This document shows positions 1 to 21,300 of a DNA stretch of 64,000 nt, one piece after another (position 1 is the stretch's first letter; each line of letters starts with the position of its first letter). Below the pieces are notes generated by a model. That model did no database searches, was not told the origin of the DNA, and saw nothing but the letters and a program-made list of their open reading frames with translations. The position numbers and the translations under genes are program-made. Origin of the DNA: Candidatus Omnitrophota bacterium (GTDB lineage: Bacteria; Omnitrophota; Gorgyraeia; B26-G9). The stretch covers positions 1,096 to 65,095 of the forward strand of contig JBDRPX010000034.1 in the NCBI GenBank assembly GCA_043826565.1, read 5' to 3'.

Positions 1-1155
1 GATCTCACCTAACAATTGGTCTGGGTTTATTATCCCATAATGCGCAGAAGGAAAATAATTATCTATAAACGCAAGCGCAAACTGCTGAATATCGGAAAAA
101 TTTTCATGGAAAGACTGCTCATTATCAAACATCATCGGCACATCCGCGTCCTTAACCGGCTGGTGATTGGCCCGGTGGAAATCATATTTTCTGATAAGTA
201 TCGCCAAAACCAGATTCCGGGTAAACGCCTTTCGAAAATCTTTGCGCATGACTTCTGCATCCTGCAGACGATAATCTCCGCTTATCCGCACTAAATGAAT
301 ATCCTGAGGTGTCGCTCCCACATATTTAGCCAAAGCCTGCGCCTGACGGCCTGCCGGCAGGATAATATCACAGACATTTGCCTGGATTTCTCGGCCGAAC
401 CGAAATGCAATATATTCACGAGTTGGATCATTTTTCTCCGGCCAGATAAAATCTCCTTCCTGTACTTTTTCCGGACGGTATTTAGTCCGGACAAAAAACA
501 ATGCCCCGTCCCTTTTCCTGATCACGATCCGGTCCTGATACTCTAATGTCTTGATTCCCAACTGATCTTTTAACCAGGAATAGTCATCGATACGTGCCGG
601 CGCATATTCGCACCATTCCGGAAGAGTTGACAATGCGGCAAGCTTCCCCGTTCCGGCAGCAATATCAGCCGCAGCCTGTTCTATAGTCGATAAAAATTTT
701 TCCAGAGAAAAAGGTTTATGTAAATAATAATGTCCCCCCATAGAAGCGACATCGGCATCTTTTAAATCATAACCGGAAACAATCAATATCCTTATTCCGG
801 GTGTAATCGAACGTAAAATATGGCCGCGGCCTTTAGCCGCTTCCGGATTGAGGATCGCCAGCTGCGGCGGATTATCCCGAAGATCCTGTTCGTCAAAAAC
901 AGAAAACAGTTCATACCCCTGATCTGCCAACTGCCCCTTAAAAAAGCTAAACATCATTTCCGCCGTATTGGAACGTTCTTCCCAATAAATTCGCTTCAGC
1001 CTTGCCGGCCGATATCCGGCAAAACTTTTCTGTATTGATTCAACATCAACACTAACCGCCGGCGATAAGCACCAGGCACAGTCAACAAACAATAATGTCT
1101 GAATGACAACAAAACATATGATCCGAATTGAGTTTTTTTGCTTTGCTTTATTCAT
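1..1155 (-). CDS. Partial CDS (3' end beyond window) for a secreted protein of the VQxFL-leader / LSP-motif family; function unknown
   Basis: My translation of the reverse strand gives an open frame from the ATG at 1155 to the window edge. It is absent from the ORF track because no stop lies in the window. The N-terminus MNKAKQKNSIRIICFVVIQTLLFVDCAWC-LSPAVSVDVESIQKSF has the same Gln-containing signal h-region and the LSP-x-phi-x-phi-x4-phi-x3-F motif as the 8031-21748 cluster. The small + strand ORFs at 16-1038 overlap it and are spurious. Confidence 0.55.
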   Translation of the reverse strand, partial: MNKAKQKNSIRIICFVVIQTLLFVDCAWCLSPAVSVDVESIQKSFAGYRPARLKRIYWEERSNTAEMMFSFFKGQLADQGYELFSVFDEQDLRDNPPQLAILNPEAAKGRGHILRSITPGIRILIVSGYDLKDADVASMGGHYYLHKPFSLEKFLSTIEQAAADIAAGTGKLAALSTLPEWCEYAPARIDDYSWLKDQLGIKTLEYQDRIVIRKRDGALFFVRTKYRPEKVQEGDFIWPEKNDPTREYIAFRFGREIQANVCDIILPAGRQAQALAKYVGATPQDIHLVRISGDYRLQDAEVMRKDFRKAFTRNLVLAILIRKYDFHRANHQPVKDADVPMMFDNEQSFHENFSDIQQFALAFIDNYFPSAHYGIINPDQLLGEI

Positions 1156-1290
1156 TTATATTTAACCTAATCTCCTATATTTAAAATAGTGTTAAAGTAT
1201 ATCATGTTTATCTTTGCCTTGCAAGCAAACCGCTGCTTTTAAAATTTACACAACTAATTGTAAAAACTCAAGATGGAATATTTTTATAAT

Positions 1291-1319
1291 TTTATATCCT
1301 TGACAGTGATTAGCTGCGA
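1291..1319 (+). promoter_or_regulatory. Sigma70-like promoter for fhs (TTGACA-N17-TATAAT)
   Basis: cTTGACAgtgattagctgcgaatTTATAATga is a near-consensus -35/-10 pair with a 17-nt spacer, about 120 nt upstream of the fhs start. Confidence 0.4.
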
Positions 1320-7218: not shown

Positions 7219-8038
7219 ATATAAAGTTCGCCCTAAGAAAAGGCTTGGACAAAACTTTCTGGATGATGAAAATGCGCTTAATCAAATTGCCTCCGCCGCC
7301 GGAATATCTAAAGAAGATCATGTCTTGGAGATCGGCGCCGGTATTGGGAATTTAAGTATTCTTTTAGCCGAAAAAGCCGGTAAGTTCTATGCTTTGGAAA
7401 AAGATAATTCCTTAGAAAAAATACTCAAAAAAACACTCGTCAAATCAGATAACTCTAAAATTATCATATCGGATATTCTCCAATTCAACTTAGACAGTAT
7501 TTATAAAGACAAAAAGCTTATCGTTGTCGGAAATCTTCCTTATTATATAACCTCTCCGATACTGCTGCATTTAATAAAGCAAAAAACCTGCATAAAGACA
7601 ATCCTGATAACCGTGCAAAAAGAAGTCGCCAAACGGATTACCGCCTCTGCCGGGAATAAGGATTACGGAAGATTAAGCTGCCTTTTACAATTTTACGCCA
7701 AAGCAGAATTACTGGAAATATTTCCTAAAAGACTCTTTATCCCTCAGCCGAACGTGGATTCCGCTCTGGTAAAGCTTGATATTTTGGACAGCCCGTCCAT
7801 TGACGTAAAATCAGAAGAAATGTTTTTTAAGGTCGTAAAAGCTATATTCAGCCACCGCCGAAAAACACTGCTAAACAGCATGCTCGCCTCCGGCAGCCTG
7901 GGATTAAGCAAAGAAGTTTTGGGAAAAACTTTAGAACAGCACGGGATATCTCCGGCAATCCGCGGAGAACAACTAAGCCTTAAAGAGATCGGTAAACTAG
8001 CCGATGCTTTTGACTTAGTTATCAAAAAGATCAAATAG
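7190..8038 (+). CDS. rsmA: 16S rRNA (adenine1518/1519-N6)-dimethyltransferase
   Basis: LGQNFL, the EIGAGIGNLS SAM-binding motif and GNLPY. Confidence 0.85.
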   Translation: MSQPSAVLAKYKVRPKKRLGQNFLDDENALNQIASAAGISKEDHVLEIGAGIGNLSILLAEKAGKFYALEKDNSLEKILKKTLVKSDNSKIIISDILQFNLDSIYKDKKLIVVGNLPYYITSPILLHLIKQKTCIKTILITVQKEVAKRITASAGNKDYGRLSCLLQFYAKAELLEIFPKRLFIPQPNVDSALVKLDILDSPSIDVKSEEMFFKVVKAIFSHRRKTLLNSMLASGSLGLSKEVLGKTLEQHGISPAIRGEQLSLKEIGKLADAFDLVIKKIK

Positions 8039-9716
8039 AACTGCCGGTCATAATCTCATTCTGTAACCCGAAGAAAGGCACCAAATCCAACACAATACTG
8101 CTTTGCACCATATCTTCAGTAACTAAGCCGCTTTCTAAAACTATCTTGCGCAGATACCGGTCCCATCTTACCTGCAATTCCTCATCAATAAATTTAAAGC
8201 CGCTGCTCAGGTAAAATAGTATTGCTTTAGAACTAAGTCCGTCCGGATTTGCTATTTGCCAACTGGACATCCTGACTTTTTCTGCTCCTAGAACTGTCCG
8301 GACCATTTCCAAAAATGCGCGAAAAGCACTTTTACTTCGGCTGCCGTGATGACGGTATTCTTTAAAAACATGAAAAGTAAGCACTGCTGTTTTCGGCTCG
8401 TTAGATATCAAACCCAACTCTACACTTCCATAACCAATAACTTCATCATTATGCATAACCGCCAAATAGTATGCTTCCGGGTCATAAACTCCAGGATATC
8501 CCTCATCCTGCCCAAGTAATATTGTTTTAACATCGTCTTTACCCTCAGCGATATAAACATGATTAGCATCCACATCCAATGCTGAGTTAAGTATTGATCT
8601 GTTACGATCCTCTAAGGCAGTTGCCAGATCATCCGCTAATCTCCTTGCCGATAAATCCCCGGCTTTTTTCACAGTAACCTTAGAAATCATATTATTATCG
8701 ATATTGATCGATGCCCGCGATGCTAAATTCTCAATCAATGTTCCGGTAAACAGTGCCGCCTGATGCGGATTAATATGCAGGGGAACTCCTAAATAATGAC
8801 GGCTTAACTCTGAACTATTGATAAAAAAACACACCTCGCTGCGTTCACAAACCGATATTATCGGCGGCGCCATTTGCTGAAAACTGTCTTTAGCTTTGTA
8901 CTCATCCATTTCGGCAGCTGTCCCCACAATAATATCAATATCCAGATCGGTAACTCCTCCGTTAACCGGAGAACTCTCCAGCTCTCTGAGTCCCAATATT
9001 GTTTCCGGAATATTAACATGCTTCGTTTTCGCATTATCCGGCGGTCCTAAGCGGTTTATTTTAACCAAATGGCTCGCCATCCCTGTAGTGACCAAATATC
9101 CCAGATAATCTGCCGGGCTCAATTTTGAAATACCGAATTCAATTTCTTTCTGCCAATCACAATTTTGTTTACGGTGAAGCGGTTTGTTCTGATGCGGCCC
9201 GAAATCTCCGTGCGCGTCAAGATGACGCCACTCTACCCCGCCGCGATCAATAATCTCCTGGGCTTTTTCCCGATAATGTTCAAAGAAAAAAGAATATGAC
9301 ATATTATGCTGGCCGCCCCAATAGATCTTTTTATTATTCGCAAGCGTTATCACAACATAATACTCTCCGCCGACTTTATATTTCGTGCCGTTCAAATAAA
9401 CTTCCAGCACCGGATAAATAACTGCCTGTCCCGGTTTTTCAAAATCAAACTGTTTCTGTTCGATAACCGCGTCAGAAAAAATAAATTCCTTATCAATCTT
9501 AATAACAAAATCCTCTTCAACCAAAGGTCTGGGAATAGAATCACTGTTGTATTTAGGGAGAAGATCATCTAAGGCATTGAAAAAACTTTTCTTAAGCAAA
9601 ACCTGCTCAATATTTATTGAAGGAGATAATTTATCTGTAGAAACAGGTCCGGCAAATAAATTTGCCGGTATCGATAGAACTAATATTATGAGGATTATTT
9701 TTTTTAATAATTTCAT
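8031..9716 (-). CDS. Secreted protein with C-terminal GNAT acetyltransferase fold; member of the VQxFL-leader / LSP / [AS][IL]-COOH family
   Basis: Likely start at the internal ATG (MKLLKKIILIILVLSIPANLFA signal peptide). The mature N-terminus is GPVSTDKLSPSINIEQVLLKKSF. The C-terminal roughly 110 aa resemble a GNAT domain (VIGYGSVEL...HGSRSKSAFRAFLEMV). The tail is ...TGSSI. Confidence 0.6.
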   Translation of the reverse strand: MKLLKKIILIILVLSIPANLFAGPVSTDKLSPSINIEQVLLKKSFFNALDDLLPKYNSDSIPRPLVEEDFVIKIDKEFIFSDAVIEQKQFDFEKPGQAVIYPVLEVYLNGTKYKVGGEYYVVITLANNKKIYWGGQHNMSYSFFFEHYREKAQEIIDRGGVEWRHLDAHGDFGPHQNKPLHRKQNCDWQKEIEFGISKLSPADYLGYLVTTGMASHLVKINRLGPPDNAKTKHVNIPETILGLRELESSPVNGGVTDLDIDIIVGTAAEMDEYKAKDSFQQMAPPIISVCERSEVCFFINSSELSRHYLGVPLHINPHQAALFTGTLIENLASRASINIDNNMISKVTVKKAGDLSARRLADDLATALEDRNRSILNSALDVDANHVYIAEGKDDVKTILLGQDEGYPGVYDPEAYYLAVMHNDEVIGYGSVELGLISNEPKTAVLTFHVFKEYRHHGSRSKSAFRAFLEMVRTVLGAEKVRMSSWQIANPDGLSSKAILFYLSSGFKFIDEELQVRWDRYLRKIVLESGLVTEDMVQSSIVLDLVPFFGLQNEIMTGSSI

Positions 9717-9744
9717 ATTATTTAATAGCAAATTACAATCAACA

Positions 9745-12700
9745 TTATATCGCTTGCTCAATAACTTCAAAACTATAACCATGTTCCATTCCAGTTCTAT
9801 CCCCATGAGAAACAGTTTCAATATTAGCTATAAATTGCTGCCTTATCGAATCCGAAGGAATAACATCATCCATTTCTACCGAGGGAACTCCTTCCAAAAG
9901 AGAAAGTAAATTCCTTATACGGGAGATCACACCCTGAAAAGCCATGGCAGAATCACCGTTTTTTTCTGTTCTTATATTTGTGTCGGCAATCCCGATAAGC
10001 GTACGCTGTAACAGCGGTTCCAAACGAGCTTTTAAAATCGGCAGTTCATAAGCTGAATAACTATTAAAGGTCACGTCCGCATTTACCCAGCTTGTATAAG
10101 TATACGCCAGCTGAGCGTTTCTTCGCAACGGCCATTGCTGGACAATATCAACTACTTTTCTGCCCAAATTTACATGGCTAAGTATATGCCGCATAAAACG
10201 CAGATCCAATGATGTCAATGGACGGTTTCCGGATAATTTAAAATTCGGCGCAGTATTCACGAAAACACGGTAAAGCTGTTCATCTTTTAAAACTCCGGAT
10301 TTTCCGGCGATCTCATCGGATAAAGCATAATCCCCTTCGATCACATACAGATCATCATTTTCCAGAGTTATTGTTTCCCTGACAAATTCTCCGTCTTTTC
10401 TGACCACTACATGCAATACCTTAATATCCGGATCTAAAATCCGGCGAATAATATCCTTCATCCGGATGACCCGGGCATTATATATCTCTTCCTGGTTAAG
10501 CTCTTTTTCCTCCTGAAGAAAATCTGTATACTGCCTTAACAGCATATCAATATGGATCATCTTTACTTTTCTGCCTTTTTCCTTTAAATCCTGAGCTACC
10601 CTTTTGGAAAAAGATATTTTTCCGCTGGTAGTCGGCCCGCTGACCAAAACAAAACCTCTTTTTCCCGGCGAAAATTCTTCATCAATACTATCTACAATAC
10701 GCCCGATCTCTTGGGTATGCTTTTCCTCGTTCTTTCGGATCAGTTCACCCAGTTTATTTTCCCGGCAAACCTGCTGTAAATGCTCCAGCGTACGCGGCTG
10801 AAGCCCCAGCTCACCATATCCCCGGTAAGGAATTCTGCCGGTCTTAGAAAATATCCTCTGCAGCCGCGGACTGCGGGCAATTTCCGCATCAATAACTCTG
10901 GCCATACTCAAAATAAAAGCCGCCTGACGCAGATCCGTCTTATATTTTTTAGCGATTTCTAAAACTGTGATCGTTTCGCTTTCAATCCGCTCTTCAAGCA
11001 TTTTATCCACACTGGTTTCTTCCCAGGCCTTACCTTCAATATTCTGCAGCCATTCAAAATAAGAAACCGTAACCCCTCCGACATTTGCTAAAATATCCGG
11101 AATGATCAGAATACCTTTATTTCGCAAAATCGGATCCGCTTCCGGAGTAGTCGGATTATTCGCTAATTCCAGAAGAATATCACAATTAACATCTGCGGCA
11201 TTAGCTATAGTGATCTGATTCTCTATCGCCGCCGGCACTTTTACATTTGTATGCACTTTCCAGAAAAGCGACTGTTTTTCTTCTTCCTGTTGTAAAATTT
11301 GATACACCCAATCCTGATAATCACCAAATCTTTCATCGATCACAAGTTCGGAAGCATTTTTTAACTGCCGGAATTTCAAGGTAACCTTTCCGCCTTTTTT
11401 ACTGACATATCCGTTTTCGATCAGATTTGCCAAAAGCTCCTTTGCATCCGAAGTAATTCGGGAAAAATCCGTTTCCGCCACACTGCCTTTTAAAAATTGC
11501 GTTCCGGTCCTGTCCAGAAAATCCTGGGAAACTGTACTAAACTCGTATAGTCGGTCATCGGACTTTTTACCCAGCACTTCCATTAATTCTTCCAAAGGAA
11601 TACCCTGAGGATTATAAAGCGTTCCGGTATGGTCCTGCCATAAATTCAACTGCGCTCCGGCAGTATTAATTGAACACGCGTAATACTCTCCCACATTACC
11701 TCCGCCCTGAACTCCCATGGTCATTTCCCGAATATCTTTACTAAACAATGCCTTTGCCCTCGCACTCAATTGACGGCCAACCGCATCACTGGAAACATCT
11801 ATTAACTGCGGAAAATGATTCAACATTGACCGCAAAGCTAAAAATCCGCCAAACCCGGTAGCTTTAGTCCTGCCTTTTGATCCGCCTTTCTCCACCGGCT
11901 TACCGGTTATAACTCCCAGTTCCGAGGCATCCAGAATGCCGAACATATCCGCGCGCTTAAGTCTTAAATAATAATTTAAATATGGTGTTTCTAATGGATC
12001 TTCGGAATTTTTAGATTTTACTTTCAGCAGCCCTCTTTCCATTCTCTTATCATCTATTTTACGGCTCCTGGCCTGGATTCTTAAATATTCATCCACAAAA
12101 ACAGCCATCATATCTGCTCCTGTACCCACATCCGGTGCCGGTACATCAATATAAGGTCCCACTGCTCCTTTTTTGGTAAGCTCCCGGGCAAAACCCCGGA
12201 CAATATATGCTTTAAGAGTGTCTGCCTTTTCTGCATAATCCGCGCTTTCCTGTAAGATCTTCTTAATTTCCTGATTTAAAAATTCTCTTAGTCCCGTATC
12301 TTCACCAGTACTGGTATAATGCATCAGTTCACCGAGAGCTTCTAAAAGAACCTCCTGGATATCCCGCCCCAGACTGTCTATAAAACCTTTCCTATCTTCT
12401 ATCTCCTGCCCGATAGCCTGAGAAAATCGCCTTAGTTTTTCTGCTTTGTCTTTTAATCCTTTAGCCTCTTTTTCATACCCTGAGATAACATTATTAACTT
12501 TATCTTCGATAACAACATCGCCTTTTCCTCCGCCGTAAGGGATACCGATCACGGCATTTTTTACCGTCATCAATGTCGCCAAACCCGCAGCTGTAGCCTT
12601 TGCCTCTTCCAATGTTTCTCCATGAACAAGAAGCCAGCGGAATCCGCCTTTAGACGGCCCCAAAGCATCACTTTGCGAAACACGAAATCCCCAAACTTTT

Positions 12701-13110
12701 ATTTTTTTTCCATCCGGCATAGGAATTTTGAAAGTAACGGTAGTAACTCTATTCGGATCCAGCAATATATTTCTCGGCTCTTTTAAACGGCTGGCTACCA
12801 GCAGATCATGTACCTTTCTGGATAAAAAACCTTTTTCATTAATAGACTCATCAACAAATACCGGATCAAGTCCGATCATTTCTGCCGCGGCCTGATAATG
12901 GATTTTTGCCGATTCCAGAATAGAAGGAGTTTCCCCGTCATGACGCGCAGCCAATATCATTTCTTCATTTCCCGGCATAAACGCCGCTCTGACAGCATTA
13001 ATCTCCAGGTGCACTGTCGGCGCTAAAGTATCACTTTGACGCATATCTGCCCAGGCAATCCCCGAAGAAAGAAATGTTTGTATAGTCACTGCTGCAATAA
13101 TCCTTAGCAT
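9745..13110 (-). CDS. Secreted fusion protein: Glu/Leu/Phe/Val-dehydrogenase-like domain plus uridine-kinase/PRK-like P-loop domain; family member
   Basis: Signal MLRIIAAVTIQTFLSSGIAWA; mature N-terminus DMRQSDTLAPTVHLEINAVRAAF. GDH-family signatures are present: LGPSKGGFRW (the K-G-G-x-R catalytic loop), IPYGGGKGDV, and the GGGNVG Rossmann motif. Downstream, LVSGPTTSGKISF (Walker A), YVIEGDYAL and LDLRFMRHI resemble uridine kinase / phosphoribulokinase. The tail is ...EVIEQAI. Confidence 0.65.
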   Translation of the reverse strand: MLRIIAAVTIQTFLSSGIAWADMRQSDTLAPTVHLEINAVRAAFMPGNEEMILAARHDGETPSILESAKIHYQAAAEMIGLDPVFVDESINEKGFLSRKVHDLLVASRLKEPRNILLDPNRVTTVTFKIPMPDGKKIKVWGFRVSQSDALGPSKGGFRWLLVHGETLEEAKATAAGLATLMTVKNAVIGIPYGGGKGDVVIEDKVNNVISGYEKEAKGLKDKAEKLRRFSQAIGQEIEDRKGFIDSLGRDIQEVLLEALGELMHYTSTGEDTGLREFLNQEIKKILQESADYAEKADTLKAYIVRGFARELTKKGAVGPYIDVPAPDVGTGADMMAVFVDEYLRIQARSRKIDDKRMERGLLKVKSKNSEDPLETPYLNYYLRLKRADMFGILDASELGVITGKPVEKGGSKGRTKATGFGGFLALRSMLNHFPQLIDVSSDAVGRQLSARAKALFSKDIREMTMGVQGGGNVGEYYACSINTAGAQLNLWQDHTGTLYNPQGIPLEELMEVLGKKSDDRLYEFSTVSQDFLDRTGTQFLKGSVAETDFSRITSDAKELLANLIENGYVSKKGGKVTLKFRQLKNASELVIDERFGDYQDWVYQILQQEEEKQSLFWKVHTNVKVPAAIENQITIANAADVNCDILLELANNPTTPEADPILRNKGILIIPDILANVGGVTVSYFEWLQNIEGKAWEETSVDKMLEERIESETITVLEIAKKYKTDLRQAAFILSMARVIDAEIARSPRLQRIFSKTGRIPYRGYGELGLQPRTLEHLQQVCRENKLGELIRKNEEKHTQEIGRIVDSIDEEFSPGKRGFVLVSGPTTSGKISFSKRVAQDLKEKGRKVKMIHIDMLLRQYTDFLQEEKELNQEEIYNARVIRMKDIIRRILDPDIKVLHVVVRKDGEFVRETITLENDDLYVIEGDYALSDEIAGKSGVLKDEQLYRVFVNTAPNFKLSGNRPLTSLDLRFMRHILSHVNLGRKVVDIVQQWPLRRNAQLAYTYTSWVNADVTFNSYSAYELPILKARLEPLLQRTLIGIADTNIRTEKNGDSAMAFQGVISRIRNLLSLLEGVPSVEMDDVIPSDSIRQQFIANIETVSHGDRTGMEHGYSFEVIEQAI

Positions 13111-13144
13111 CTTTCGATTCCTTGAAACCATCTCTCATTCTCCT

Positions 13145-14218
13145 TTAAATAGAATATTCTACTAATTTATTTATTTCCAAATCCGCTAAAAATTTCCCCA
13201 CAACTTTTAAATCATCCGCCGATAAATACTCAAGATCTTCCCTGAGTCCGTTATAATCATCTTTCCCATGTATTCCCCAGCCGATCTTAAAAACAAAAGC
13301 TTTTAAATATACTTCGTCATTTGTTCCCAGCATTTGTCTGGCAATATTAATAAGCTTATCCCGGCGATCCGCATATTCCCAGGCATTAAATTCATCTTCT
13401 CCAAAAAAATGTCCGCGCCTTAACGAATTTACCACAACTGCTTTTACATACGATTGATAATCCCGTTTATTACCCTGCAGGTTTCTCTTCTCAAAAAAAG
13501 ATTTTACCATATATTCTCTGCCGGAAAACCGTTCCGCAAGATCATTGATCGTCACTCCCGGACGCGGAGATAAAACCAATCCTTCCATAGGCTGTCGATG
13601 ATACCAGAGAAAAAACCGGAGTTCTTTCATTGTGATATCTCCTATAATATCTTCCGCTTCCCACTTACTTCTCCAATCCGCAAATTTTTTAAGCCCGTGC
13701 TTGCTTTGCAGCAAACTTACCAGTTCATCATATCGCCGTCTTATCCGAAAATCACGCATATTTACACTGCGCGTAAGCCGTTCCGGAGAAAACATCTCAC
13801 TAATTATATCCCGCCAATTATAAAGAATGTCCATTTCACTAAAAAACTTGATCCCAATACTTTTAACTAAAAAACTCTCTTGAAGTTTTTCAATTATCTG
13901 CTTGCGGGTATCGGAAACCAGTCCTCCATATTCTCCGCCTTTAAGCCAGACTATCGAAAACCCCTGATCTTCAACATCTCTCTGTTTAATTTCATCCAAT
14001 ACGGCTAAAAGATCTGCTTTATTATTCTGTAATAACGCAAAACTATTTTTAAGAACTTCCCCATTAACTTTAATCTCCGGAGATAATGTATCAATTTGCG
14101 GCTGCGCACAAGCATTTCCTAATATCAAAAACGCCTGGACAAACACCAGGCAAATAATCCCCGCATTATTATTAATTTTCACAATTTTTATTAATCCTTT
14201 TCTAAAGGGATCGCGCAA
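13145..14218 (-). CDS. Secreted hypothetical protein; family member
   Basis: Signal ...AGIICLVFVQAFLILGNACA; mature N-terminus QPQIDTLSPEIKVNGEVLKNSF; tail ...NKLVEYSI. No recognisable catalytic domain. Confidence 0.5.
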   Translation of the reverse strand: MRDPFRKGLIKIVKINNNAGIICLVFVQAFLILGNACAQPQIDTLSPEIKVNGEVLKNSFALLQNNKADLLAVLDEIKQRDVEDQGFSIVWLKGGEYGGLVSDTRKQIIEKLQESFLVKSIGIKFFSEMDILYNWRDIISEMFSPERLTRSVNMRDFRIRRRYDELVSLLQSKHGLKKFADWRSKWEAEDIIGDITMKELRFFLWYHRQPMEGLVLSPRPGVTINDLAERFSGREYMVKSFFEKRNLQGNKRDYQSYVKAVVVNSLRRGHFFGEDEFNAWEYADRRDKLINIARQMLGTNDEVYLKAFVFKIGWGIHGKDDYNGLREDLEYLSADDLKVVGKFLADLEINKLVEYSI

Positions 14219-14921
14219 TTAAATTCTGCTTCTGATCATTTCGAAAATCTCTTCTTCGGCTTCTTACCGGGCTCTTTAATCCTAAAGCTCTCGCTAAATG
14301 TCTTTCAAAACCAAAAATCCGGCCTTTATCGCCTTTTGCCCGTAATGCCTCTCTGACCTCCCGCACAGACACAGGAAAATACGCATGGACGGAATCAGTA
14401 AGCAAGAAAACTAATTCCCGCACCGTAAAATTGTCGATCGTCTCCGTTATTCCGGGATTTGAAAGAATCCCGACAGCAGTAAAATATCCTAAGCTTTCGG
14501 CTATTTCCGGATCAACATCTTCTAAATCTTCGGCCGGATCCCATTCTTGAGCAAGCATAGCTCTTTGATGGCGATGCTCTCTTCTTTCTAACATGATTAA
14601 ATGATCTTGAGATGGCCGCTTTCCCCGGCGGTTATTCAAGCGTCTGGATATTCCGGTTAACCGGGGAGCATTCTGATGCTGCATCTGGGCAATAGTTGCT
14701 TCATATTCATCGTCCGAAAGTTTTTTAGCGGCAAGCTGGGAAAATACCTGCTGCAGCAGCTGCGCATTAATTGATATTTCCGGCGATAAAGTTGATGGCT
14801 GTTCCCGATCAGATAAAAAAGAAATTTCTCCGGCTAGGGCAATATTCATTGTTAGAAACAATTGCACAAGCACACATCCGATAACCCGCAAATACAATCT
14901 TCTCATTAAATCCTCCTTCAT
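14202..14921 (-). CDS. Secreted hypothetical protein; family member
   Basis: Signal MRRLYLRVIGCVLVQLFLTMNIALA; mature N-terminus GEISFLSDREQPSTLSPEISINAQLLQQVF; tail ...NLIARSL. It overlaps the downstream family member by 17 nt. Confidence 0.5.
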   Translation of the reverse strand: MKEDLMRRLYLRVIGCVLVQLFLTMNIALAGEISFLSDREQPSTLSPEISINAQLLQQVFSQLAAKKLSDDEYEATIAQMQHQNAPRLTGISRRLNNRRGKRPSQDHLIMLERREHRHQRAMLAQEWDPAEDLEDVDPEIAESLGYFTAVGILSNPGITETIDNFTVRELVFLLTDSVHAYFPVSVREVREALRAKGDKGRIFGFERHLARALGLKSPVRSRRRDFRNDQKQNLIARSL

Positions 14922-15020: not shown

Positions 15021-16481
15021 TTATATCGCCTGCTGCACAAGTATCGGCAGTATCGCCGCCTGTTCGTCAAACTCCGGTAAACCATCCTCTGTTTCAACAC
15101 CGATAACTACATCCGCGGGAAAAATTGAAGGCTCTCCATTCAAAACCGCCTGCCATTCCGGCCTTTGTATTTCAAATAATATCGCCGCCAAATCCGATAA
15201 ATGGTCTGTTTGACGAAGCGCACGATAAGCCTGCTCCAAAGTCCCGGGAACATCCGGATGTGATTTTTTCCATTGCCTGGTTTTGGTATTGATAATAAAA
15301 TAACTTGAGGAACCGCCGGAGGCTTTATACGCGATTGCTATCTCACGGCCTCCAGACCTTGCCATTATTTCTACTTTAGTAATCTTAAACGAAGATGCTG
15401 TTGGCGAATCAGCAACGCTTATGGGAATTATCTGCTTAACTTCTGTTGCCATCTCTACAGAAATTGTACTCTTTTTGGAATCTGCTGTTCCTTGAGCCGC
15501 CGGATTAACATCAGCATCAGTTTCTCCATCAAGCGGCTGTAATCTGAAACCGGTAAAACTTCCGCTCGCATCCGGATCAGCATCAGCAGGATCAGCATCA
15601 GCAGAATCATCAGCCAATCCATCTTCATATTTATCCGCCATCATACTTTCAGCAATCGCAGTATCCATGGCTTCTGTTATCCGGTCTGTATGTTGTTTAA
15701 ATACTTCACCATCAATATGTTTATGTTGGAACAAAACCAGTAAAACCCTGTTCTCCCGGGAAAGCCCCTGCTCTCTTTGCTCGGGCATATTCATATTTTC
15801 TTTTTGCACATCAATTATAAGCCCGGATATATGCGCCACAGAAGTGTAGAATGCTGCCTTATTTCGCAATATCCCTGCGGAGATAACCGCGATATTATTT
15901 TTTATCCGGATAGCTCTGGTCCGCTGGATTTCTTTACCTTGCATACGCAATAGAAAAGTACCGTCCTTTTCTATTCCAAACGCGCAATGCGCCGCCTGTT
16001 TCGGCAAATGTGTTACTATGTATAATTCCGGAGCCATAACAATTGTTTTTCCGCTATAGCTATATAACCGCATCCTTGCCTGTATAACCATCTTTTTAAG
16101 CGCTTCATCCTGTTCGGCATTACCCAGACTACTCGCGGTTTTTTTGCCGTCTTTATATACTTCTATAGAACACTCTCCGGTTTTCCCATTGAGAATTTTA
16201 ATTTTAATATATTCCCCGCCCGGAGAACGCATTGCCTTTAAAAACGAGTGGTGTTCTTGCGGAGTTATATCTCCTTCTGATGAATAGTTTGTTCTTAATT
16301 CCAAATTGTACGCTGCGAATTTTTGGGCAAATTTTTGCAAATCAGAAATACTGACCTTTGGCGCCAGGGTTGCACTCAGTTCATTCTTACGCGTTGACAA
16401 ATCCGCGGCCTGCGCGTTCTGCACACACAGGAATACTTGAAACACCATCCACACTGCTGTTTTCCTGATTATTTTTTTCAT
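15021..16481 (-). CDS. Secreted hypothetical protein with an acidic (D/A/P-rich) linker; family member
   Basis: Signal MKKIIRKTAVWMVFQVFLCVQNAQA; mature N-terminus ADLSTRKNELSATLAPKVSISDLQKFAQKF; tail ...LPILVQQAI. Confidence 0.55.
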   Translation of the reverse strand: MKKIIRKTAVWMVFQVFLCVQNAQAADLSTRKNELSATLAPKVSISDLQKFAQKFAAYNLELRTNYSSEGDITPQEHHSFLKAMRSPGGEYIKIKILNGKTGECSIEVYKDGKKTASSLGNAEQDEALKKMVIQARMRLYSYSGKTIVMAPELYIVTHLPKQAAHCAFGIEKDGTFLLRMQGKEIQRTRAIRIKNNIAVISAGILRNKAAFYTSVAHISGLIIDVQKENMNMPEQREQGLSRENRVLLVLFQHKHIDGEVFKQHTDRITEAMDTAIAESMMADKYEDGLADDSADADPADADPDASGSFTGFRLQPLDGETDADVNPAAQGTADSKKSTISVEMATEVKQIIPISVADSPTASSFKITKVEIMARSGGREIAIAYKASGGSSSYFIINTKTRQWKKSHPDVPGTLEQAYRALRQTDHLSDLAAILFEIQRPEWQAVLNGEPSIFPADVVIGVETEDGLPEFDEQAAILPILVQQAI

Positions 16482-16527
16482 TTTTCTCCGATCTTTACAC
16501 TTTACACTTTTAACTTTTAACTTATTT

Positions 16528-17982
16528 TTATATCGCTTGCTGCACTAATTGCGCACCAGTAACATTAATGGGAAATATTACTTTTTCCTGAGTCAGCACA
16601 GGAACTATGTTTGTCTGAATAATCCGGGGATTACACGGTAAAATAATAATAAATTTTGCTCCGGTAATTTCACCCTGAATATCCCGGCAATTCTCTGCGC
16701 TTAAAGTTCCGCCAAAATATCTTTCAATGATCCGGCGGCAAAGCGAAAGTCCCAGACCATGAGCTGTCCCATTACCCGCTCTGGTGCTGAATCCTTCGGA
16801 AAAAATCAGATCAATTACCGCAGCTTCCTGGTTATCGGCATTTTCATGAGCTTCTGTCCACATTCCCAATACCTTTGCCTGCTTGATCAAATCAGTAATT
16901 AAAAACCCCTTCCCATTATCCGTAAATTCAAATATTATGTTATCTTTTGTCTTTTTCGCTTCTACAGTACAATCAAACATTTTATTTTGGCCGTTCATGG
17001 CATGGGCTAATAAATTTCTTTGTAAATTTTTAACAACAAATTCAAACCCATCGCGATATCCAAAATATTCTAACGGCTCAATTTTCCCTTTATACAAAAC
17101 CTGCGCTTGCACAACTTCCGCCAGATCAAACCGTTCCTGTTTAATGCCTTCGATAACCACATTAAGCCGTTTAATCATAAAATCAATAAAATCAAGCGCA
17201 CCCTGTGCCGCCCTTTTTAGAAATTTATCAGCCCCAGGCCGTTCCGCAATTTTTTTCAGCCATTCATAAGATGTATTAACCTCATAAACCGAGCTTAAAA
17301 GTACCATTACACCTCGCGGATCAGTAACATGATTATGCGCAAGCATATCTTTAATTCTGGATAATTTGGTAAATAGATCCCGGCAAATAGAAATAATTCT
17401 TTCTATTTCTTCAAGATCATCACTTTTAACAACATCCAGATTGTTTTCCTGATGCAAAAGATCTCCCAGCTGATGAAAAACCATACCAAACTCAACATGA
17501 ATCCGCTCAACTGTAGAAAATCCCATTTCTTTGCGATTAAAAATTGCCGCGGCATATTCACCAAAATCAGTAAAACTGTATCTTGTTCCCCCCTTTGCTC
17601 CTTTGTTTTTAAGATCCGGGATAAGATATCCCTTTTCTACAAGCTCGCTAAATCTCTGTTCAATCTCTTCAACAGATAAATTCCGGGCCGCAACCCGCTT
17701 AAAACGCCTCGCGGTTATCCTGGCCTCCTGGGCAACTTTATAGAGATCGGCATTCGTAACAATTTTTTCAAAAACATCGATCCAGTCACTTTGCTCTATA
17801 GTAATTTTTTGAACATCAAACTGTTGAAATGCGGACTGAAACTGCGGGATAAAAATATTTAGTTGCGGAGAGAGATTGTCTTCTGCCCAAACAACCTGCC
17901 CAAGCATAAGCATTTGAATAACAATAGCAATAAGCACTATGTTTAATCTTAATTTTTTAGATATAAAAAAACCGGTTTTCAT
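16528..17982 (-). CDS. Secreted histidine-kinase-like (GHKL) ATPase domain protein; family member
   Basis: Start taken at ATG 17982, which has a GGAG 6 nt upstream. Signal MKTGFFISKKLRLNIVLIAIVIQMLMLGQVVWA; mature N-terminus EDNLSPQLNIFIPQFQSAFQQF. The C-terminal HATPase_c shows G1 DNGKGF and G2 GLGLSLCRRI boxes and a possible degenerate H-box, LAHNHVTDPRG. The tail is ...AQLVQQAI. Confidence 0.6.
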   Translation of the reverse strand: MKTGFFISKKLRLNIVLIAIVIQMLMLGQVVWAEDNLSPQLNIFIPQFQSAFQQFDVQKITIEQSDWIDVFEKIVTNADLYKVAQEARITARRFKRVAARNLSVEEIEQRFSELVEKGYLIPDLKNKGAKGGTRYSFTDFGEYAAAIFNRKEMGFSTVERIHVEFGMVFHQLGDLLHQENNLDVVKSDDLEEIERIISICRDLFTKLSRIKDMLAHNHVTDPRGVMVLLSSVYEVNTSYEWLKKIAERPGADKFLKRAAQGALDFIDFMIKRLNVVIEGIKQERFDLAEVVQAQVLYKGKIEPLEYFGYRDGFEFVVKNLQRNLLAHAMNGQNKMFDCTVEAKKTKDNIIFEFTDNGKGFLITDLIKQAKVLGMWTEAHENADNQEAAVIDLIFSEGFSTRAGNGTAHGLGLSLCRRIIERYFGGTLSAENCRDIQGEITGAKFIIILPCNPRIIQTNIVPVLTQEKVIFPINVTGAQLVQQAI

Positions 17983-18310: not shown

Positions 18311-21300
18311 ATGATAACTCCAATAAAGACAAACAATAAAGCGCTAAAGAAAATTTTCGCGCTGATACTTGTTCAAATATTCCTATTTACCGGGATAGTC
18401 CAGTCCGCTCCTCAGGAATTCCTAGCGCCGTCAGTCCAGGTAACCCATGATGCATTTAAAACAGCCTTTGGAAATGCTACAACAACTATAAGAGGCCCAC
18501 GGGATACATTTCGGGAAACTGAAAATCCTCCGGCACCTTTATATGTAATTCCCGGACACGGCATGGATGTACGATTTCCTTTTATCGGCTCTGGAAAAAT
18601 CAATAATCGACTACGTACGTATAAAGAAGATTTAGTGCTCAGCACCATTGCAGCCCGTAACGCTAGAGCTGAAGCTTTTCTAAACACTGGAGATAAAGCA
18701 AATTTTATTTTTATAGATTTACATCTAGCCGACCATCTCTTAAGCACCTTCCCGCCAGAACATACAAATCAGGCATCGAAAGAAAGACTTATTCAGCAGC
18801 TGGAAGACTACACCTTACTCTTAGAAAAATTCTTAAATAATAATAAACAAGGTAATTACGCCTCCATATCAAATCCCGAAGGAGCTCATCACACAGAAAT
18901 ACTCACGCTTTCTTTAACAGAAATGAATGTGATTAATTTTGTATCACAACAGTTTAATGCTCACATTACACATTCTGCTACAGATAGCGGTGATCTTGTT
19001 GGCCGGACAAATGGAAAATGGGTAATGGTTGGATTATATGAATTTCAAGGACAGGAAACTTATAACCCAATTCCGTTGGATAACATATCCGATTCCCAGC
19101 TACCAAAACACTGCAAATGTACAGTAGTGGATTTAACCTCGAGAAAACTAGAGAATATGAAACTATTACGCAAAGCAAATGCACGTTACCATAAACAACG
19201 TCCTTTAGAAAACATAACTGATGAAGTTCGAGCTGAGATACGAAATGGATTTGAAGTTCACGGCGTTCCTAATGGTATTGGGAGAAAAGTCGTGCATGGA
19301 ACTATGGTTGTTGCGGATATTATAGATTCCCGTCCGGACTTATCATATCCAATGCCCCCATACTCCCCGGAAAATTTTCGAACTGCACGAGGAGAATTAA
19401 GACTTGCAACATCTAAAATTTATGAGAGTTTTAGTTTTCAGGATAACAATAAAGATAGAGCTCGCAAGATTCTTTCTTCCGCCATAAAAAATGCCAGCAC
19501 AGAATCCGGACGTACCGGATTCAACCCAACTCTTTTCTTTCTAGCTAGTATTAGAGATGTAATTCTGCAACTTAACACTGCAGAAGACAAGACTTTGAAA
19601 GAAGATTTAGCCAATATCTCCAAACAGATATCTGATACTATTTACCCCCCATTACATGCCTCTTTCGATGATGATCAGATAAAACCTCAAAGTAAGAAAG
19701 AAAATAATCTGGCTAAAGCTGCAAAAGAATACCTGGATAATTATTTAGCAAAGGAAAAACAATATAGAAAAGCAAAAGAAGCTCTTGTACCACAAATACA
19801 AGCTGAAAAAAGCATAGAAGTAATAGAACTCGAAAAGCAAATAGCAGAACAATCAGCACTAAGAACAAAATCAACAGATGACACAATTAGAGAACAATAC
19901 ATAGACACTATTAATAAACTAGAAATACAATTAGAATCAGTTAAAAGCGACAAGCTAAAAGCTCTTGAAGACAACTTCAATAAACAAAAAACTCTTGAAG
20001 AAGATATGCACAAATATTGGGGCCTTGGGAAAAGCGTATGGCATGTTGCAGTAAAAATTTTAAGAGAACAAGATTGTTCTATTCCAGAAGCAATTTTCAG
20101 AGCTGCTAATCCTTATTGTGTATATCTAATGCGTTATGCAGATAGTGATCACTTTGCGGGATCATATACTACCTTTGCTGAAATATCCAGTGAACTTCTT
20201 TCAAACTGGGAAATAGTAACCAATGCTCCGATAACCCGGAAAGTCTCTTTAAAAAATGTTCCTGAAAATAAACCTTTTATTCTCTTCTTGCCCAGAGATT
20301 TAAAAAACCCAACTGAATATTTTGAACTTCGTGATAAATATCCAAACATGGTAGCTATCATCAGCCGCGCCGGATTGAAGCACTATGGAACCTCGGCTAA
20401 ACAAGAACGCTTTCCAGTACTTAATGAAGCTGCTTCTCTTGTCAATGGACGTAGAGTCTCTACCCGACAGGCAATCGAGGGAAATGAGCCGGCTATTCTT
20501 GACACTGAAACACATATTTTGAAATTATGGCCAACAAGGGAAGAGCTTATTGCTGCACAACTAGAAGAAAAAATGGAACAAGCAGAGGAAATATTTCTCA
20601 ATCGAAGGATTTCTCTACCAGTTGTAACCACCGATGGAGTATCTGTCCAGGTTATGGCCAATCTTGATCGAGCTGAAGATGCCTCTAAATTAGCGAAGCT
20701 CGGCATAAAAAATGTCGGTCTTTACCGCACAGAATATGCTTATATGCAGCGTGGAGACATAACCGAAAATGAATGGGTAAGAATCTTTACCACCCTGGTA
20801 CAGGATTCTCAAGCAGATTTTATCAGCATGCGATTAGCAGACCGTAAAGTTACCGGAAAAGGTGAAGACATAAAAAATGTACCTGCATTCGGTAATAGTT
20901 CTGAAGAAGGTATCCGATTTCTACTTTTTGATAGTGTTGGCAGAAATATTGCGCTAACCCAGTTGCGAGCAGCAATGCGCGTATATGCTAAACATAAAGT
21001 AATTGGAGCTATGTTCCCGATGATCTCAACTACCGATCACGGAACCCGCGCACTGGCACTTTTCGATGAAGCTAAACAAAATCTCATTGATAAAGGGCTC
21101 GTAACAGAGCGTGACCTCGAAGGATTTAACAAGGGGTTAATGTTTGAAACACCATCTGCAGTAGATGCAAGCAAAGGATTAATGGAACGATTTTCTTTCG
21201 GGAGCTTTGGTTCTAATGATTACACCTCATTATCCGAATCTTTTTCGCGCGGTGATGAAGGATCAACAGAGCGTCTCACGGAATTTACCCCGAACATATT

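What the first reader, a model, noticed from the sequence alone, without database searches (positions are those of the whole stretch)
1..1155. An eighth, dispersed member of the LSP-leader family at the window edge
My translation of the reverse strand gives MNKAKQKNSIRIICFVVIQTLLFVDCAWC-LSPAVSVDVESIQKSF.... This has the same Gln-containing h-region and the same 16-residue LSP-x-phi-x-phi-x4-phi-x3-F spacing as the cluster. The gene is separated from the cluster by about 7 kb of housekeeping genes (fhs, mfd, surA-pdxA-rsmA), so the family is dispersed, not only tandem. The ORF is missing from the supplied track because its stop lies outside the window.
Basis: seen in the sequence. Interest (0 to 1): 0.55.

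Follow-up and report, generated by a model that had tools for sequence, protein, structure and literature searches.

The report
Eighth LSP-leader/QAI-tail protein, confirmed
The open reading frame at the window edge is a real, intact gene for a probably exported kinase-like protein, and it carries both the N-terminal leader and the six-residue C-terminal tail that mark a large family of Omnitrophota proteins absent from the databases and papers searched.

Summary
Confirmed. Window 1155→1 (minus strand) is an intact 385-codon ORF that runs off the window. A public contig that is 100% identical over 1,400 nt of overlap (L006, Logan SRR26275510) completes it. The full protein is 500 aa with no frameshift and ends in LLEQAI-COOH, the family's consensus tail.

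Its N-terminus scores 28 bits (E 2e-8) against a profile built only from the seven clustered paralogs. It scores 42 bits (E 2e-12) against a profile built only from proteins of other genomes. No other window ORF exceeds 7 bits, so it is the eighth member.

The cargo is a pseudo-receiver domain (phospho-acceptor Asp→Asn) followed by an atypical kinase-like domain.

At family level, a leader-only profile finds 152 protein clusters, and every named one is Omnitrophota or PVC group. In 20 loci, 51 of 51 C-terminally complete leader-bearing ORFs end in [AS][ILV]-COOH. The leader has a textbook Sec/signal-peptidase-I layout but an unusually conserved sequence (KIIALVLIQAFLVMDIAWA|GG). It is followed by [DS]TL[SA]PxIxI[DN]xxxFQxxF. 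Cargo domains are cytoplasm-type enzymes.

No Pfam or NCBIfam model and no paper found describes the family. Export followed by sorting through unknown machinery, possibly delivery of effectors, is inferred and not shown.

The parts
1..1155 (-). Coding sequence, codons 1-385 of a 500-codon gene. The last 115 codons and the stop lie beyond window position 1, at L006 637-984.
   Evidence: Open frame. The full gene is L006 637-2139(-), 500 aa ending LLEQAI*. L006 985-2384 is 100% identical to window 1-1400.
1069..1155 (-). Family leader, residues 1-29: MNKAKQKNSIR-IICFVVIQTLLFV-DCAWC. It has a basic n-region, a 13-residue h-region with the conserved Gln19, and a c-region with Ala at -3 and Cys at -1.
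   Evidence: Every conserved position of the family logo is matched or conservatively replaced: R-8, I-7, I-6, C-5, Q0, L+3, D+6, A+8, W+9, C+10. Profile scores are 28.1 and 42.4 bits.
1021..1068 (-). LSP motif, residues 30-45: LSPAVSVDVESIQKSF. It starts directly at the predicted signal-peptidase site, so the linker is 0 residues.
   Evidence: It matches the family logo L0, [SA]1, P2, phi4, phi6, [DN]7, phi11, [QK]12, F15.
661..993 (-). Receiver (REC)-like pseudo-receiver domain, about residues 55-165. Asn103 (nt 847-849) replaces the phospho-acceptor Asp. The beta5 Lys is kept in the YLHKPF motif (709-726).
   Evidence: Profile A1 against PDB sequences hits response regulators 3rqi_A (E 4.4e-4) and 3a0r_B (E 2.2e-3). 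The printed alignment puts 'ILNPE' opposite 'ILDIE'. The AF2 model shows alternating strands and helices at pLDDT about 70-83.
1..630 (-). Atypical kinase-like domain, residues 176-385; it continues beyond the window. The catalytic-loop-like motif LIRKYDFHRANH is at 163-198 (D325, H327, N330). The DFG-like motif MMFDNEQSFH is at 106-135 (D344).
   Evidence: - D, N and D are invariant in 9 homologues down to 37% identity.
- The AF2 domain model has pLDDT 70.9 and pTM 0.74.
- The Foldseek top-50 list is made up almost entirely of kinase-fold proteins. The best are Fam20A 5wrs_B and H. pylori CtkA 3akk_A (E 0.02, prob 0.98, TM 0.37). HipA, PI3K and LepB follow.
- No Pfam hit.
1196..1224 (-). Promoter-like site TTGCAA-17-TATACT with an extended -10 TG. 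Its -10 hexamer ends about 40 nt upstream of the ATG.
   Evidence: Consensus scan only; this is not evidence of function.
8031..9716 (-). Family member 2 (561 aa, tail GSSI, weakest leader, no Gln).
   Evidence: Identical to library protein P0047.
9745..13131 (-). Family member 3 (1128 aa; glutamate-dehydrogenase domain plus nucleoside-kinase-like domain; tail EQAI).
13145..14182 (-). Family member 4 (345 aa, tail EYSI).
   Evidence: (P0009).
14202..14921 (-). Family member 5 (239 aa, tail ARSL).
15021..16481 (-). Family member 6 (486 aa, tail QQAI; LAP motif with a one-residue shift).
16528..17982 (-). Family member 7 (484 aa, HATPase_c cargo, tail QQAI).
18311..21748 (+). Family member 8 (1145 aa, PEP-utilizers_C cargo, tail EQAI).

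Best explanation
**Shown**
- Window 1155→1(-) is the first 77% of an intact 500-codon gene of an uncultured Omnitrophota bacterium.
- Its product is a full member of a large family that appears restricted to Omnitrophota. The family is defined by a two-part tag placed around varied cargo.
  - Tag part 1: an N-terminal leader with the n-h-c layout of a Sec/signal-peptidase-I signal peptide. Its sequence is itself conserved: [KR]-I-I-[ASC]-L-V-L-I-Q-A-F-L-x-x-[DN]-x-A-W-[AC].
  - Tag part 2: 0-31 residues later, the motif [DS]-T-L-[SA]-P-x-phi-x-phi-[DN]-x3-phi-[QK]-x2-F.
  - Tag part 3: a six-residue C-terminal tail, L-[IV]-E-Q-[AS]-I-COOH.
- In this protein the cargo is a receiver-like domain that cannot be phosphorylated (Asn103 in place of Asp). 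It is followed by an atypical protein-kinase-like domain and a helical region.

**Inferred**
1. The leader takes the protein through Sec and is cut after AWC, so the mature protein begins with LSP.
2. The exposed N-terminal motif and the C-terminal carboxylate tail are then read by a dedicated, still unidentified sorting or secretion step.
3. That step places these cytoplasm-type enzymes beyond the inner membrane, on the cell surface or in a host or prey cell.
4. The protein would then act there as a kinase or pseudokinase.
For: **Membership**
- Profile scores are 28.1 bits (profile from the seven cluster leaders only) and 42.4 bits (profile from other genomes only).
- The leader and LSP motif match the family logos at the conserved positions.
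- The tail LLEQAI is present on the completed gene.

**Leader and tail are one unit**
- A leader-only profile search of 1.84 billion representatives gives 152 hits at E<=1e-3.
- 101 of 145 true hits end in [AS][ILV]-COOH, against 3.3% expected from composition. Hits without a tail have a median length of 230 aa against 808 aa, as expected of fragments.
- In 20 loci, 51 of 51 C-terminally complete leader-bearing ORFs carry the tail.

**Sec-like layout**
- The n-region has a mean net charge of +3.3; the 15 residues after the hydrophobic stretch average -1.2.
- The h-region is 13 residues long.
- A -3/-1 small-residue site lies 10-11 residues after Gln in 105 of the 138 leaders for which a candidate site was found.
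- Ordinary signal peptides of the same genome (PstS, SurA) score at most about 5 bits.

**Selection acts on the protein**
- Conserved residues use different codons in the eight copies.

**Cargo**
- Receiver-like domain with Asp→Asn.
- Kinase-like fold and invariant D-x-H-x-x-N and F-D-N motifs.
- The same kinase-like domain sits behind ordinary signal peptides in two unrelated architectures, L005 and P0008. This supports a location outside the cytoplasm.

**Taxonomy**
- All 10 sampled family members that carry a source name are Omnitrophota/Omnitrophica or 'PVC group', as is the one named orthologue of the finding gene (P0005).
- Omnitrophota are proposed to be host-dependent, predatory or parasitic nanobacteria (PMC10066038).
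Against: - No export, cleavage or localisation was tested. No signal-peptide predictor was available, so the Sec reading rests on rule-based inspection.
- Family cargo includes Radical_SAM, GGDEF, HTH_8, SAM methyltransferases, an NAD(P)-dependent dehydrogenase and ATP-dependent enzymes. None of these could work in a periplasm. This forces either delivery into another cell or a wrong topology inference.
- No candidate machinery gene recurs next to family members in 20 loci. Flanks are housekeeping genes, and the only recurrent neighbour is a small PilZ-like protein in 3 loci.
- The kinase-fold evidence is weak: Foldseek E 0.02, TM 0.37, and no Pfam or PDB sequence hit.
- The C-terminus comes from a second assembly, not from the window.
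- The finding gene's orthologues have degraded leaders (8-18 bits, Gln lost). The tag may therefore be under weaker constraint in this subfamily.
Confidence: 0.7

Rival explanations
1. The leader is an uncleaved signal-anchor or a targeting signal for an internal membrane compartment. Anammoxosome enzymes of other PVC bacteria carry signal peptides in this way. The proteins stay in or on the producer cell, and the tail acts as a KDEL- or PTS1-like retention or docking tag.
For: - The h-region is far more conserved than Sec needs: Gln in 128/135, Phe+2 in 110/135, Leu+3 in 103/135. That suggests a helix recognised by a partner within the membrane.
- Cargo domains are cytoplasm-type.
- The 2026 Omnitrophota preprint reads similar domain sets on long proteins as membrane-anchored.
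Against: - The uncharged hydrophobic stretch is 13 residues, ending at Asp/Asn, in the largest class of leaders (60 of 143; 18-21 residues in most others). It is followed by a strongly conserved -3/-1 A-W-A site. A short h-region with an AxA site is typical of cleaved signals, not anchors.
- The charge bias puts the cargo on the far (trans) side of the membrane in any case.
- No internal compartment is known in these ultra-small cells (my own knowledge, plus PMC10066038).
Confidence: 0.15
2. The C-terminal tail is a degradation tag, not an address. A hydrophobic carboxylate end such as ...QAI is read by ClpXP or a tail-specific protease. This would resemble the ssrA tag LAA and the MuA tail RRKKAI. 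Copies that fail to be exported would be destroyed. This is compatible with export through the leader.
For: - The tail is only six residues long and ends in a small residue plus an aliphatic residue with a free carboxylate.
- It accompanies potentially harmful enzymes such as Fic, GGDEF and kinases.
- The resemblance to ClpX C-motifs is from my own knowledge and was not tested.
Against: - Positions -6 to -3 (L, I/V, E, Q) are as conserved as the last two residues. That is more specific than known degrons.
- The 51/51 coupling with the leader fits a shared pathway equally well.
Confidence: 0.12
3. The N-terminal strand-like motif (phi-x-phi) and the C-terminal strand-like tail are assembly elements. 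They would pair within one protein as a clasp, or head-to-tail between proteins, as in donor-strand exchange in chaperone-usher pili. This would build a multi-enzyme array.
For: - Alternating hydrophobic residues follow LSP, and the tail is hydrophobic.
- Members are often encoded in tandem.
Against: - There is no S/A covariation between the two motifs (Fisher p 0.82).
- Both ends are low-confidence and unpaired in the AF2 model of orthologue P0001.
- Cargo folds are unrelated to one another and complete in themselves.
Confidence: 0.06
4. The resemblance is chance: this is an ordinary secreted protein with a generic signal peptide, or a pseudogene remnant.
For: Nothing found. The only points in its favour are that short motifs can recur by chance and that the ORF is cut by the window edge.
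Against: - E values are 1.7e-8 and 1.7e-12 against two independent profiles, while generic signal peptides of the same window score about 5 bits or less.
- The frame is intact over 500 codons and carries the consensus tail.
- Full-length orthologues sit at the syntenic position.
Confidence: 0.01

Closest known systems
General Sec / signal peptidase I signal peptides
   Same: Basic n-region, h-region of about 13 residues, polar c-region with small residues at -3 and -1 (A-W-A|G), total length about 25-30 aa.
   Different: - About twelve leader positions carry 2-4 bits of information, including a near-invariant Gln in the middle of the h-region.
- Generic signal peptides of the same genome do not match the profile.
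- The leader is always paired with a motif near the start of the mature chain and a C-terminal tail.
Specialised, sequence-conserved signal peptides (SipW-dependent TasA-type, YSIRK-G/S, KxYKxGKxW); comparison from my own knowledge
   Same: A recognisable sequence motif inside or next to a Sec signal peptide. It marks a subset of exported proteins for a dedicated peptidase or secretion site.
   Different: - The motif and the phylum differ: those are Firmicutes, this is Omnitrophota.
- None of them has a partner C-terminal carboxylate tail.
- None was hit in NCBIfam or Pfam even at E<=10.
N-terminal signal peptide plus C-terminal sorting signal systems (sortase/LPXTG, exosortase/PEP-CTERM, rhombosortase/GlyGly-CTERM, archaeosortase/PGF-CTERM)
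   Same: Many paralogues per genome with unrelated cargo share a signal peptide at one end and a short conserved tag at the other. The families are lineage-specific and often encoded in clusters.
   Different: - Those C-terminal signals have three parts (motif, transmembrane helix, basic cluster; about 25-35 aa). Here the tag is six residues ending in the free carboxylate, with nothing conserved upstream.
- No sortase-like gene was seen nearby.
- Those cargoes are surface proteins, not cytoplasm-type enzymes.
Short carboxylate-dependent C-terminal tags (peroxisomal PTS1 -SKL, ER -KDEL, PDZ ligands, ClpX degrons ssrA -LAA and MuA -RRKKAI)
   Same: A tag of 3-6 residues that must sit at the very C-terminus, on proteins of many folds.
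   Different: - The sequence L-[IV]-E-Q-[AS]-I matches none of these consensus motifs.
- In PDZ ligands position -1 is usually free. Here it is fixed as Ala or Ser.
- No receptor has been identified.
Secreted atypical kinases: Fam20 family, Helicobacter pylori CtkA, and the HipA / PI3-4K-like group
   Same: These are the best structural matches of the C-terminal domain. The domain also has a D-x-H-x-x-N catalytic-loop-like motif and a D-containing DFG-like motif in the right order, and a signal peptide upstream.
   Different: Matches are weak (E 0.02, TM 0.37, 11-14% identity), with no sequence-level hit to any kinase family. Activity is untested.
Response-regulator receiver (REC) domains
   Same: Profile-level sequence match (E 4e-4) and a predicted alternating strand-helix fold. 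The beta5 Lys and the beta4 Ser/Thr positions are kept.
   Different: The phospho-acceptor Asp is Asn in all seven homologues that contain the domain. The domain sits behind an export signal, and it is absent from the P0007/L004 orthologue.

Membership tests
LSP-leader / QAI-tail family (found in no database searched; defined here) | Leader core [KR]-I-I-[ASC]-x-x-x-x-Q-x-[FL]-L ... [DN]-x-A-W-[AC] | tested here: met
   Residues 11-29, RIICFVVIQTLLFVDCAWC, fit every conserved logo position. Scores are 28.1 bits against the cluster-only profile and 42.4 bits against the other-genomes profile.
LSP-leader / QAI-tail family (found in no database searched; defined here) | Motif L-[SA]-P-x-phi-x-phi-[DN]-x3-phi-[QK]-x2-F within about 31 residues of the leader | tested here: met
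   LSPAVSVDVESIQKSF at residues 30-45. The linker is 0 residues, as in its orthologues.
LSP-leader / QAI-tail family (found in no database searched; defined here) | C-terminal tail phi-phi-[EGQ]-[QS]-[AS]-[IL]-COOH | tested here: met
   ...NNELLEQAI* on L006, which is 100% identical to the window over 1,400 nt. The tail itself lies outside the window.
LSP-leader / QAI-tail family (found in no database searched; defined here) | Omnitrophota origin and a neighbourhood shared with other members | tested here: met
   The one named orthologue (P0005) and the GTDB loci L003/L004 that hold orthologues are labelled Candidatus Omnitrophota. Synteny with fhs-mfd-surA-pdxA-rsmA and the member island is seen in L001, L002 and L007.
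Sec-type (signal peptidase I) signal peptide | n-h-c layout with small residues at -3 and -1 | tested here: met
   The n-region MNKAKQKNSIR has net charge +4. The h-region is 13 residues. A27 is at -3 and C29 at -1. This is rule-based; no predictor was available.
Sec-type (signal peptidase I) signal peptide | Actual export and cleavage | not testable with these tools
   Needs N-terminal proteomics or reporter fusions.
Type IV prepilin-like (class III) signal | [KR]-G|F-T-L-I-E motif at the start of a hydrophobic helix of about 20-25 residues, with no downstream AxA site | tested here: not met
   - A small residue lies 5 positions before Gln, which looks superficially similar. However, K/R is at -4, not -2.
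- Only about 10 hydrophobic residues would remain before Asp (about 15 before the A-W-A site).
- A conserved A-W-A site follows.
- No N_methyl or pilin model was hit at E<=10.
Bacterial lipoprotein (signal peptidase II) | Lipobox [LVI]-[ASTVI]-[GAS]-C | tested here: not met
   The finding has C-A-W-C, with Trp at -1. Across the family the corresponding position is Ala in 102/135 and Cys in only 20/135.
Tat signal peptide | Twin-arginine S/T-R-R-x-F-L-K motif | tested here: not met
   There is no RR in the n-region. No TAT model was hit.
Sortase / exosortase-type C-terminal sorting signals | Motif followed by a transmembrane helix and a basic tail | tested here: not met
   Only the last six residues are conserved. 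There is no hydrophobic helix or basic cluster.
Response-regulator receiver domain | Receiver fold | tested here: met
   PDB profile hits 3rqi_A (E 4.4e-4) and 3a0r_B (E 2.2e-3). Below the Pfam reporting threshold.
Response-regulator receiver domain | Phospho-acceptor Asp at the end of beta3 | tested here: not met
   Asn103 (AILNPE) aligns with the acceptor Asp of 3a0r_B. It is invariant in all seven homologues that contain the domain.
Protein-kinase-like fold (Fam20 / CtkA / HipA / PI3-4K-like) | Bilobal kinase fold with a catalytic-loop Asp/Asn and a metal-binding Asp | tested here: inconclusive
   D325-x-H-x-x-N330 and F-D344-N are invariant. The Foldseek list is almost all kinases but weak (best E 0.02, TM 0.37). 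There is no sequence-profile hit.

The most novel reading that the evidence does not exclude
The LSP leader and QAI tail together are the address label of a protein-delivery pathway specific to the phylum. Through it, ultra-small host-dependent Omnitrophota would export a large and varied set of cytoplasm-type enzymes to their surface or into host or prey cells. These include kinases, Fic, GGDEF, methyltransferases, glutamate dehydrogenase, PEP-utilising and radical-SAM enzymes, up to more than 3,000 aa. The machinery is not yet recognised. The gene at the window edge would encode a secreted atypical kinase effector of that pathway.
Probability: 0.3. Interest if true: 0.85.

Novelty: new variant of a known kind. 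Interest (0 to 1): 0.55.

Why it matters
- **A computable marker.** Omnitrophota are widespread, uncultured, ultra-small bacteria thought to live off other cells. How they act on their hosts is unknown. A leader profile plus a C-terminal tail check would list a candidate exported proteome or effector set in any Omnitrophota genome. It would also give a handle for finding the machinery by co-occurrence.
- **What this gene adds.** It shows that the tag is not confined to one tandem island. It supplies a clean test of leader-tail coupling, because the tail was predicted first and then found. It also adds a kinase-like cargo whose relatives elsewhere also sit behind signal peptides.
- **If the tag is only a membrane tether.** It would still define a large family absent from the databases searched and improve annotation of proteins now labelled hypothetical.

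Tried and rejected
- **Word-indexed search with the leader alignment.** 218 candidates, none at E<=10. The leader is too short for that tool; the exhaustive profile search worked instead.
- **Pfam and NCBIfam.** Full proteins gave no family for the leader or for the kinase-like domain. Isolated leaders gave nothing at E<=10.
- **AF2 of full-length orthologue P0001.** Poor model (pLDDT 58.5). It was used only for the receiver part. The domain-only model was better.
- **GTDB genome scan with the orthologue profile.** Only 3 loci, so the orthologue group is narrow.
- **Rfam over the whole window.** No family at gathering threshold. The inverted repeat upstream of fhs is therefore not a known riboswitch.
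- **Literature.**
  - No paper links Omnitrophota to a sorting signal.
  - No relevant paper contains the motif strings.
  - The two main Omnitrophota papers do not describe the leader.
- **Pilin-like reading of the leader.** Considered because a small residue lies five positions before Gln. Rejected on spacing, length and the A-W-A site.
- **Lipoprotein and Tat readings.** Rejected.
- **DNA-level explanation (gene conversion or an RNA motif).** Rejected, because codons differ at conserved residues.
- **Covariation between LSP/LAP and AI/SI.** None.
- **Search for recurrent neighbouring machinery in 20 loci.** Only housekeeping synteny and a small PilZ-like gene in 3 loci.
- **Look-up of P0141.** Not on record.
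Full report
**1. The observation**

- The reverse strand of window 1-1155 translates as quoted: 385 codons with no stop, running off the window.
- An in-frame stop lies two codons upstream of the ATG at 1155-1153, so the start is fixed.
  - It hits seven places only.
  - Each hit sits directly after a hydrophobic N-terminal segment, and one is at 1068(-).
  - The seventh gene of the tandem cluster (15021-16481) has the same motif with a one-residue shift.
- The cluster holds seven genes (8031-21748). They end in GSSI, EQAI, EYSI, ARSL, QQAI, QQAI and EQAI.
- None of the other ORFs of at least 150 aa ends in [AS][IL].

**2. Is the resemblance more than chance?**

- A profile built only from the seven cluster leaders scores the finding ORF at 28.1 bits, E 1.7e-8. 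The best non-member among 253 six-frame segments scores 6.9 bits.
- A second profile was built only from family proteins of other genomes, with the window's own proteins left out.
  - It scores the finding ORF at 42.4 bits, E 1.7e-12.
  - That is third of the eight window members, which range from 64.7 to 21.1 bits.
  - The next window ORF, a PstS signal peptide, scores 5.2-5.3 bits.
- The window therefore holds exactly eight members.
- Conservation acts on the protein. The invariant Leu, Pro and Gln use different codons among the eight copies, and the motif cores share 49% nucleotide identity on average.

**3. The missing C-terminus**

- An exact look-up of the window's Fhs protein found Logan contig SRR26275510_109600, held as L006.
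- L006 985-2384 is 100% identical to window 1-1400. L006 extends 984 nt beyond window position 1.
- There the gene is L006 637-2139(-): 500 codons plus a stop. Its first 385 residues are identical to the window ORF. It ends ...AAEIEFNNELLEQAI*.
- Six full-length orthologues (45-48% identity, 501-510 aa) end in ESI or RSI.

**4. Neighbourhood**

- Between the gene and the cluster lie fhs, a short mfd-like gene, surA, pdxA and rsmA. The Pfam labels come from the identical contig.
- The same arrangement holds in two other Omnitrophota assemblies: orthologue, then divergent fhs, mfd, surA, pdxA, rsmA.
- In a third assembly (L007), five family members fill the interval between rsmA and miaA. clpB occupies the slot next to fhs.
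- 'Dispersed' is correct. This copy sits at a conserved position beside a conserved island.
- Singletons among unrelated housekeeping genes also exist (L008), as do runs of five large members (L009).
- Promoter-like hexamers face both ways in the 283-bp fhs-finding gene spacer. This is a consensus match only.

**5. The family**

*Size and taxonomy*
- A 54-position leader-only profile was searched against 1.84 billion representative proteins. It found 152 with E<=1e-3, nearly all matching at residues 1-60.
- Four of the 149 fetched hits are obvious false positives (P0021, P0075, P0136, P0142), with several internal matches each.
- All 10 sampled members that carry a source name are Candidatus Omnitrophota/Omnitrophica or 'PVC group bacterium'.

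*Leader-tail coupling*
- Of the other 145 hits, 101 end in [AS][ILV]-COOH (63 AI, 31 SI), against 3.3% expected from composition.
- Hits without a tail have a median length of 230 aa against 808 aa, as expected of contig-end fragments.
- In 20 fetched loci, 59 ORFs match the leader. Of these, 51 have a complete C-terminus, and all 51 carry the tail.

*Logos*
- Leader: basic n-region, then [KR]-I-I-[ASC]-L-[IV]-L-I-Q-A-F-L-x-x-[DN]-x-A-W-[AC] | G-G. Gln is present in 128 of 135.
- After a linker of 2-31 residues (0 in the finding gene and its orthologues): [DS]-T-L-[SA]-P-x-phi-x-phi-[DN]-x3-phi-[QK]-x2-F.
- Tail: L-[IV]-E-Q-[AS]-I, with nothing conserved upstream of it.

*Cargo*
- Cargo in 73 members includes SAM methyltransferases, HEAT, PEP-utilizers_C, HATPase_c, GGDEF and Fic.
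- It also includes HTH_8, GT1, Radical_SAM, HAD, ATP-grasp, HD, ROK and a nucleotidyltransferase.

*Databases and literature*
- No Pfam or NCBIfam model matches the leader, even at E<=10.
- No paper found describes it.

**6. This protein**

- Residues 1-29 are the leader and 30-45 the LSP motif, with no linker between them.
- Residues about 55-165 match response-regulator receiver domains at profile level (3rqi_A E 4.4e-4; 3a0r_B E 2.2e-3).
  - The printed alignment puts Asn103 (AILNPE) opposite the phospho-acceptor Asp.
  - The Asn is invariant in all seven homologues that contain the domain. I call it a pseudo-receiver.
- Residues about 176-400 have no Pfam hit.
  - They carry invariant LIRKYDFHxANH and MMFDNxQSFH motifs in nine homologues down to 37% identity.
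  - A domain-only AF2 model has pLDDT 70.9 and pTM 0.74.
  - The Foldseek list for that model is almost entirely kinases. Fam20A and H. pylori CtkA come first (E 0.02, prob 0.98, TM 0.37). HipA, PI3K and LepB follow.
  - I read this as an atypical kinase-like fold, with weak support.
- The same domain sits behind ordinary signal peptides in two other architectures: L005 (receiver-like plus kinase-like) and P0008 (an unidentified ~390-residue N-terminal region, by eye beta-propeller-like, plus kinase-like). Neither carries the tail. This argues independently for a location outside the cytoplasm.

**7. How it most likely works**

*Shown*
- The tag has three parts, and they are tightly coupled.
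- The leader has the charge, length and -3/-1 features of a cleaved Sec signal: n-region +3.3, following 15 residues -1.2, 13-residue h-region, A-W-A site.

*Inferred*
- The protein is exported through Sec and cleaved after AWC29.
- The N-terminal motif and the C-terminal carboxylate tail are then recognised by dedicated machinery.

*The difficulty*
- The family cargo could not work in a periplasm.
- The most coherent reading is delivery to another cell. This fits the proposed host-dependent lifestyle of the phylum (PMC10066038).
- Retention at a membrane or an internal compartment, a degron role for the tail, and an assembly role for the two ends are not excluded.

*Machinery*
- No machinery gene recurs beside members.
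- The only repeated non-housekeeping neighbour is a small protein that looks PilZ-like by eye, seen in 3 loci.

**8. Verdict**

- Observation confirmed and interpretation supported.
- The gene itself is an incremental addition: an eighth member.
- The check gave a clean prospective test of leader-tail coupling.
- The family appears restricted to Omnitrophota, comprises at least ~150 clusters at 50% identity, and is missing from the databases and papers searched.
- I rate it a new variant of a known kind: a specialised Sec leader plus a terminal sorting tag.

Noticed in passing
P0001-P0007; L001 10001-11512, L002 10001-11506, L004 4728-5816: Orthologues of the finding gene have degraded leaders. 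Gln is replaced by E, H, L or G. They score 8-18 bits against the independent family profile, against 42 bits for the window copy. Their tails are ESI or RSI, not EQAI. The P0007/L004 copy lacks the receiver-like domain altogether.
   Followed up: partly
L005 9689-11227 and protein P0008: The kinase-like domain also occurs outside the family behind ordinary signal peptides. L005 ('MAG: bacterium') encodes a 512-aa receiver-like plus kinase-like protein. P0008 is an 865-aa protein from a high-GC source with a beta-propeller-like region plus the kinase-like domain. Neither has the tail.
   Followed up: partly
L005 11368-13986: The 872-aa neighbour of the L005 homologue has KLAPPVGQQVVISDF after a hydrophobic N-terminus and ends in ...GMESL. 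It may be a distant variant of the tag outside Omnitrophota.
   Followed up: no
L001 7165-8049; L004 about 3756-4640: Related genomes encode an extra family member of about 296 aa (tails ETSI and FRAI). In L001 it lies between mfd and fhs; in L004 it lies just upstream of the kinase-like gene. The window has only an 88-bp gap between fhs and mfd.
   Followed up: partly
window 8031-21748; L007 3836-14343: The interval between rsmA and miaA is a conserved island filled only with family members: seven in the window and five in L007. The membership differs, but the PEP-utilizers_C member is shared.
   Followed up: partly
L014 about 6020, L020 about 3192, L021 about 1900 and 5220: Small proteins of about 115-150 aa sit among family members in three loci, in three of the four cases directly upstream of one. 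They carry RRxxxR and D-x-S-x-G-G motifs, which look PilZ-like (c-di-GMP binding) by eye. Some family cargoes are GGDEF domains.
   Followed up: no
window 1300-1328 (+): A perfect TTGACA-17-TATAAT promoter consensus lies upstream of fhs. A GC-rich inverted repeat (about 1355-1395) follows it and matches no Rfam family.
   Followed up: partly
window 3221-5110; also L001, L002, L007: The Mfd-like gene is only 620-629 aa in all four genomes. It has the UvrB_inter, CarD_TRCF_RID, DEAD and Helicase_C domains. That is about half the length of canonical Mfd.
   Followed up: no
window about 40493-49772: Two tandem pstS-pstC-pstA-pstB-phoU operons are followed by a porin-like gene and a two-component pair that looks like phoR/phoB. 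I identified these by eye from the translations.
   Followed up: no
L002 1-1951: The large helicase (AAA_11/AAA_12, 1074 aa) next to rsmA ends in FIQSAI. It is probably a family member whose leader lies outside the fetched locus.
   Followed up: no
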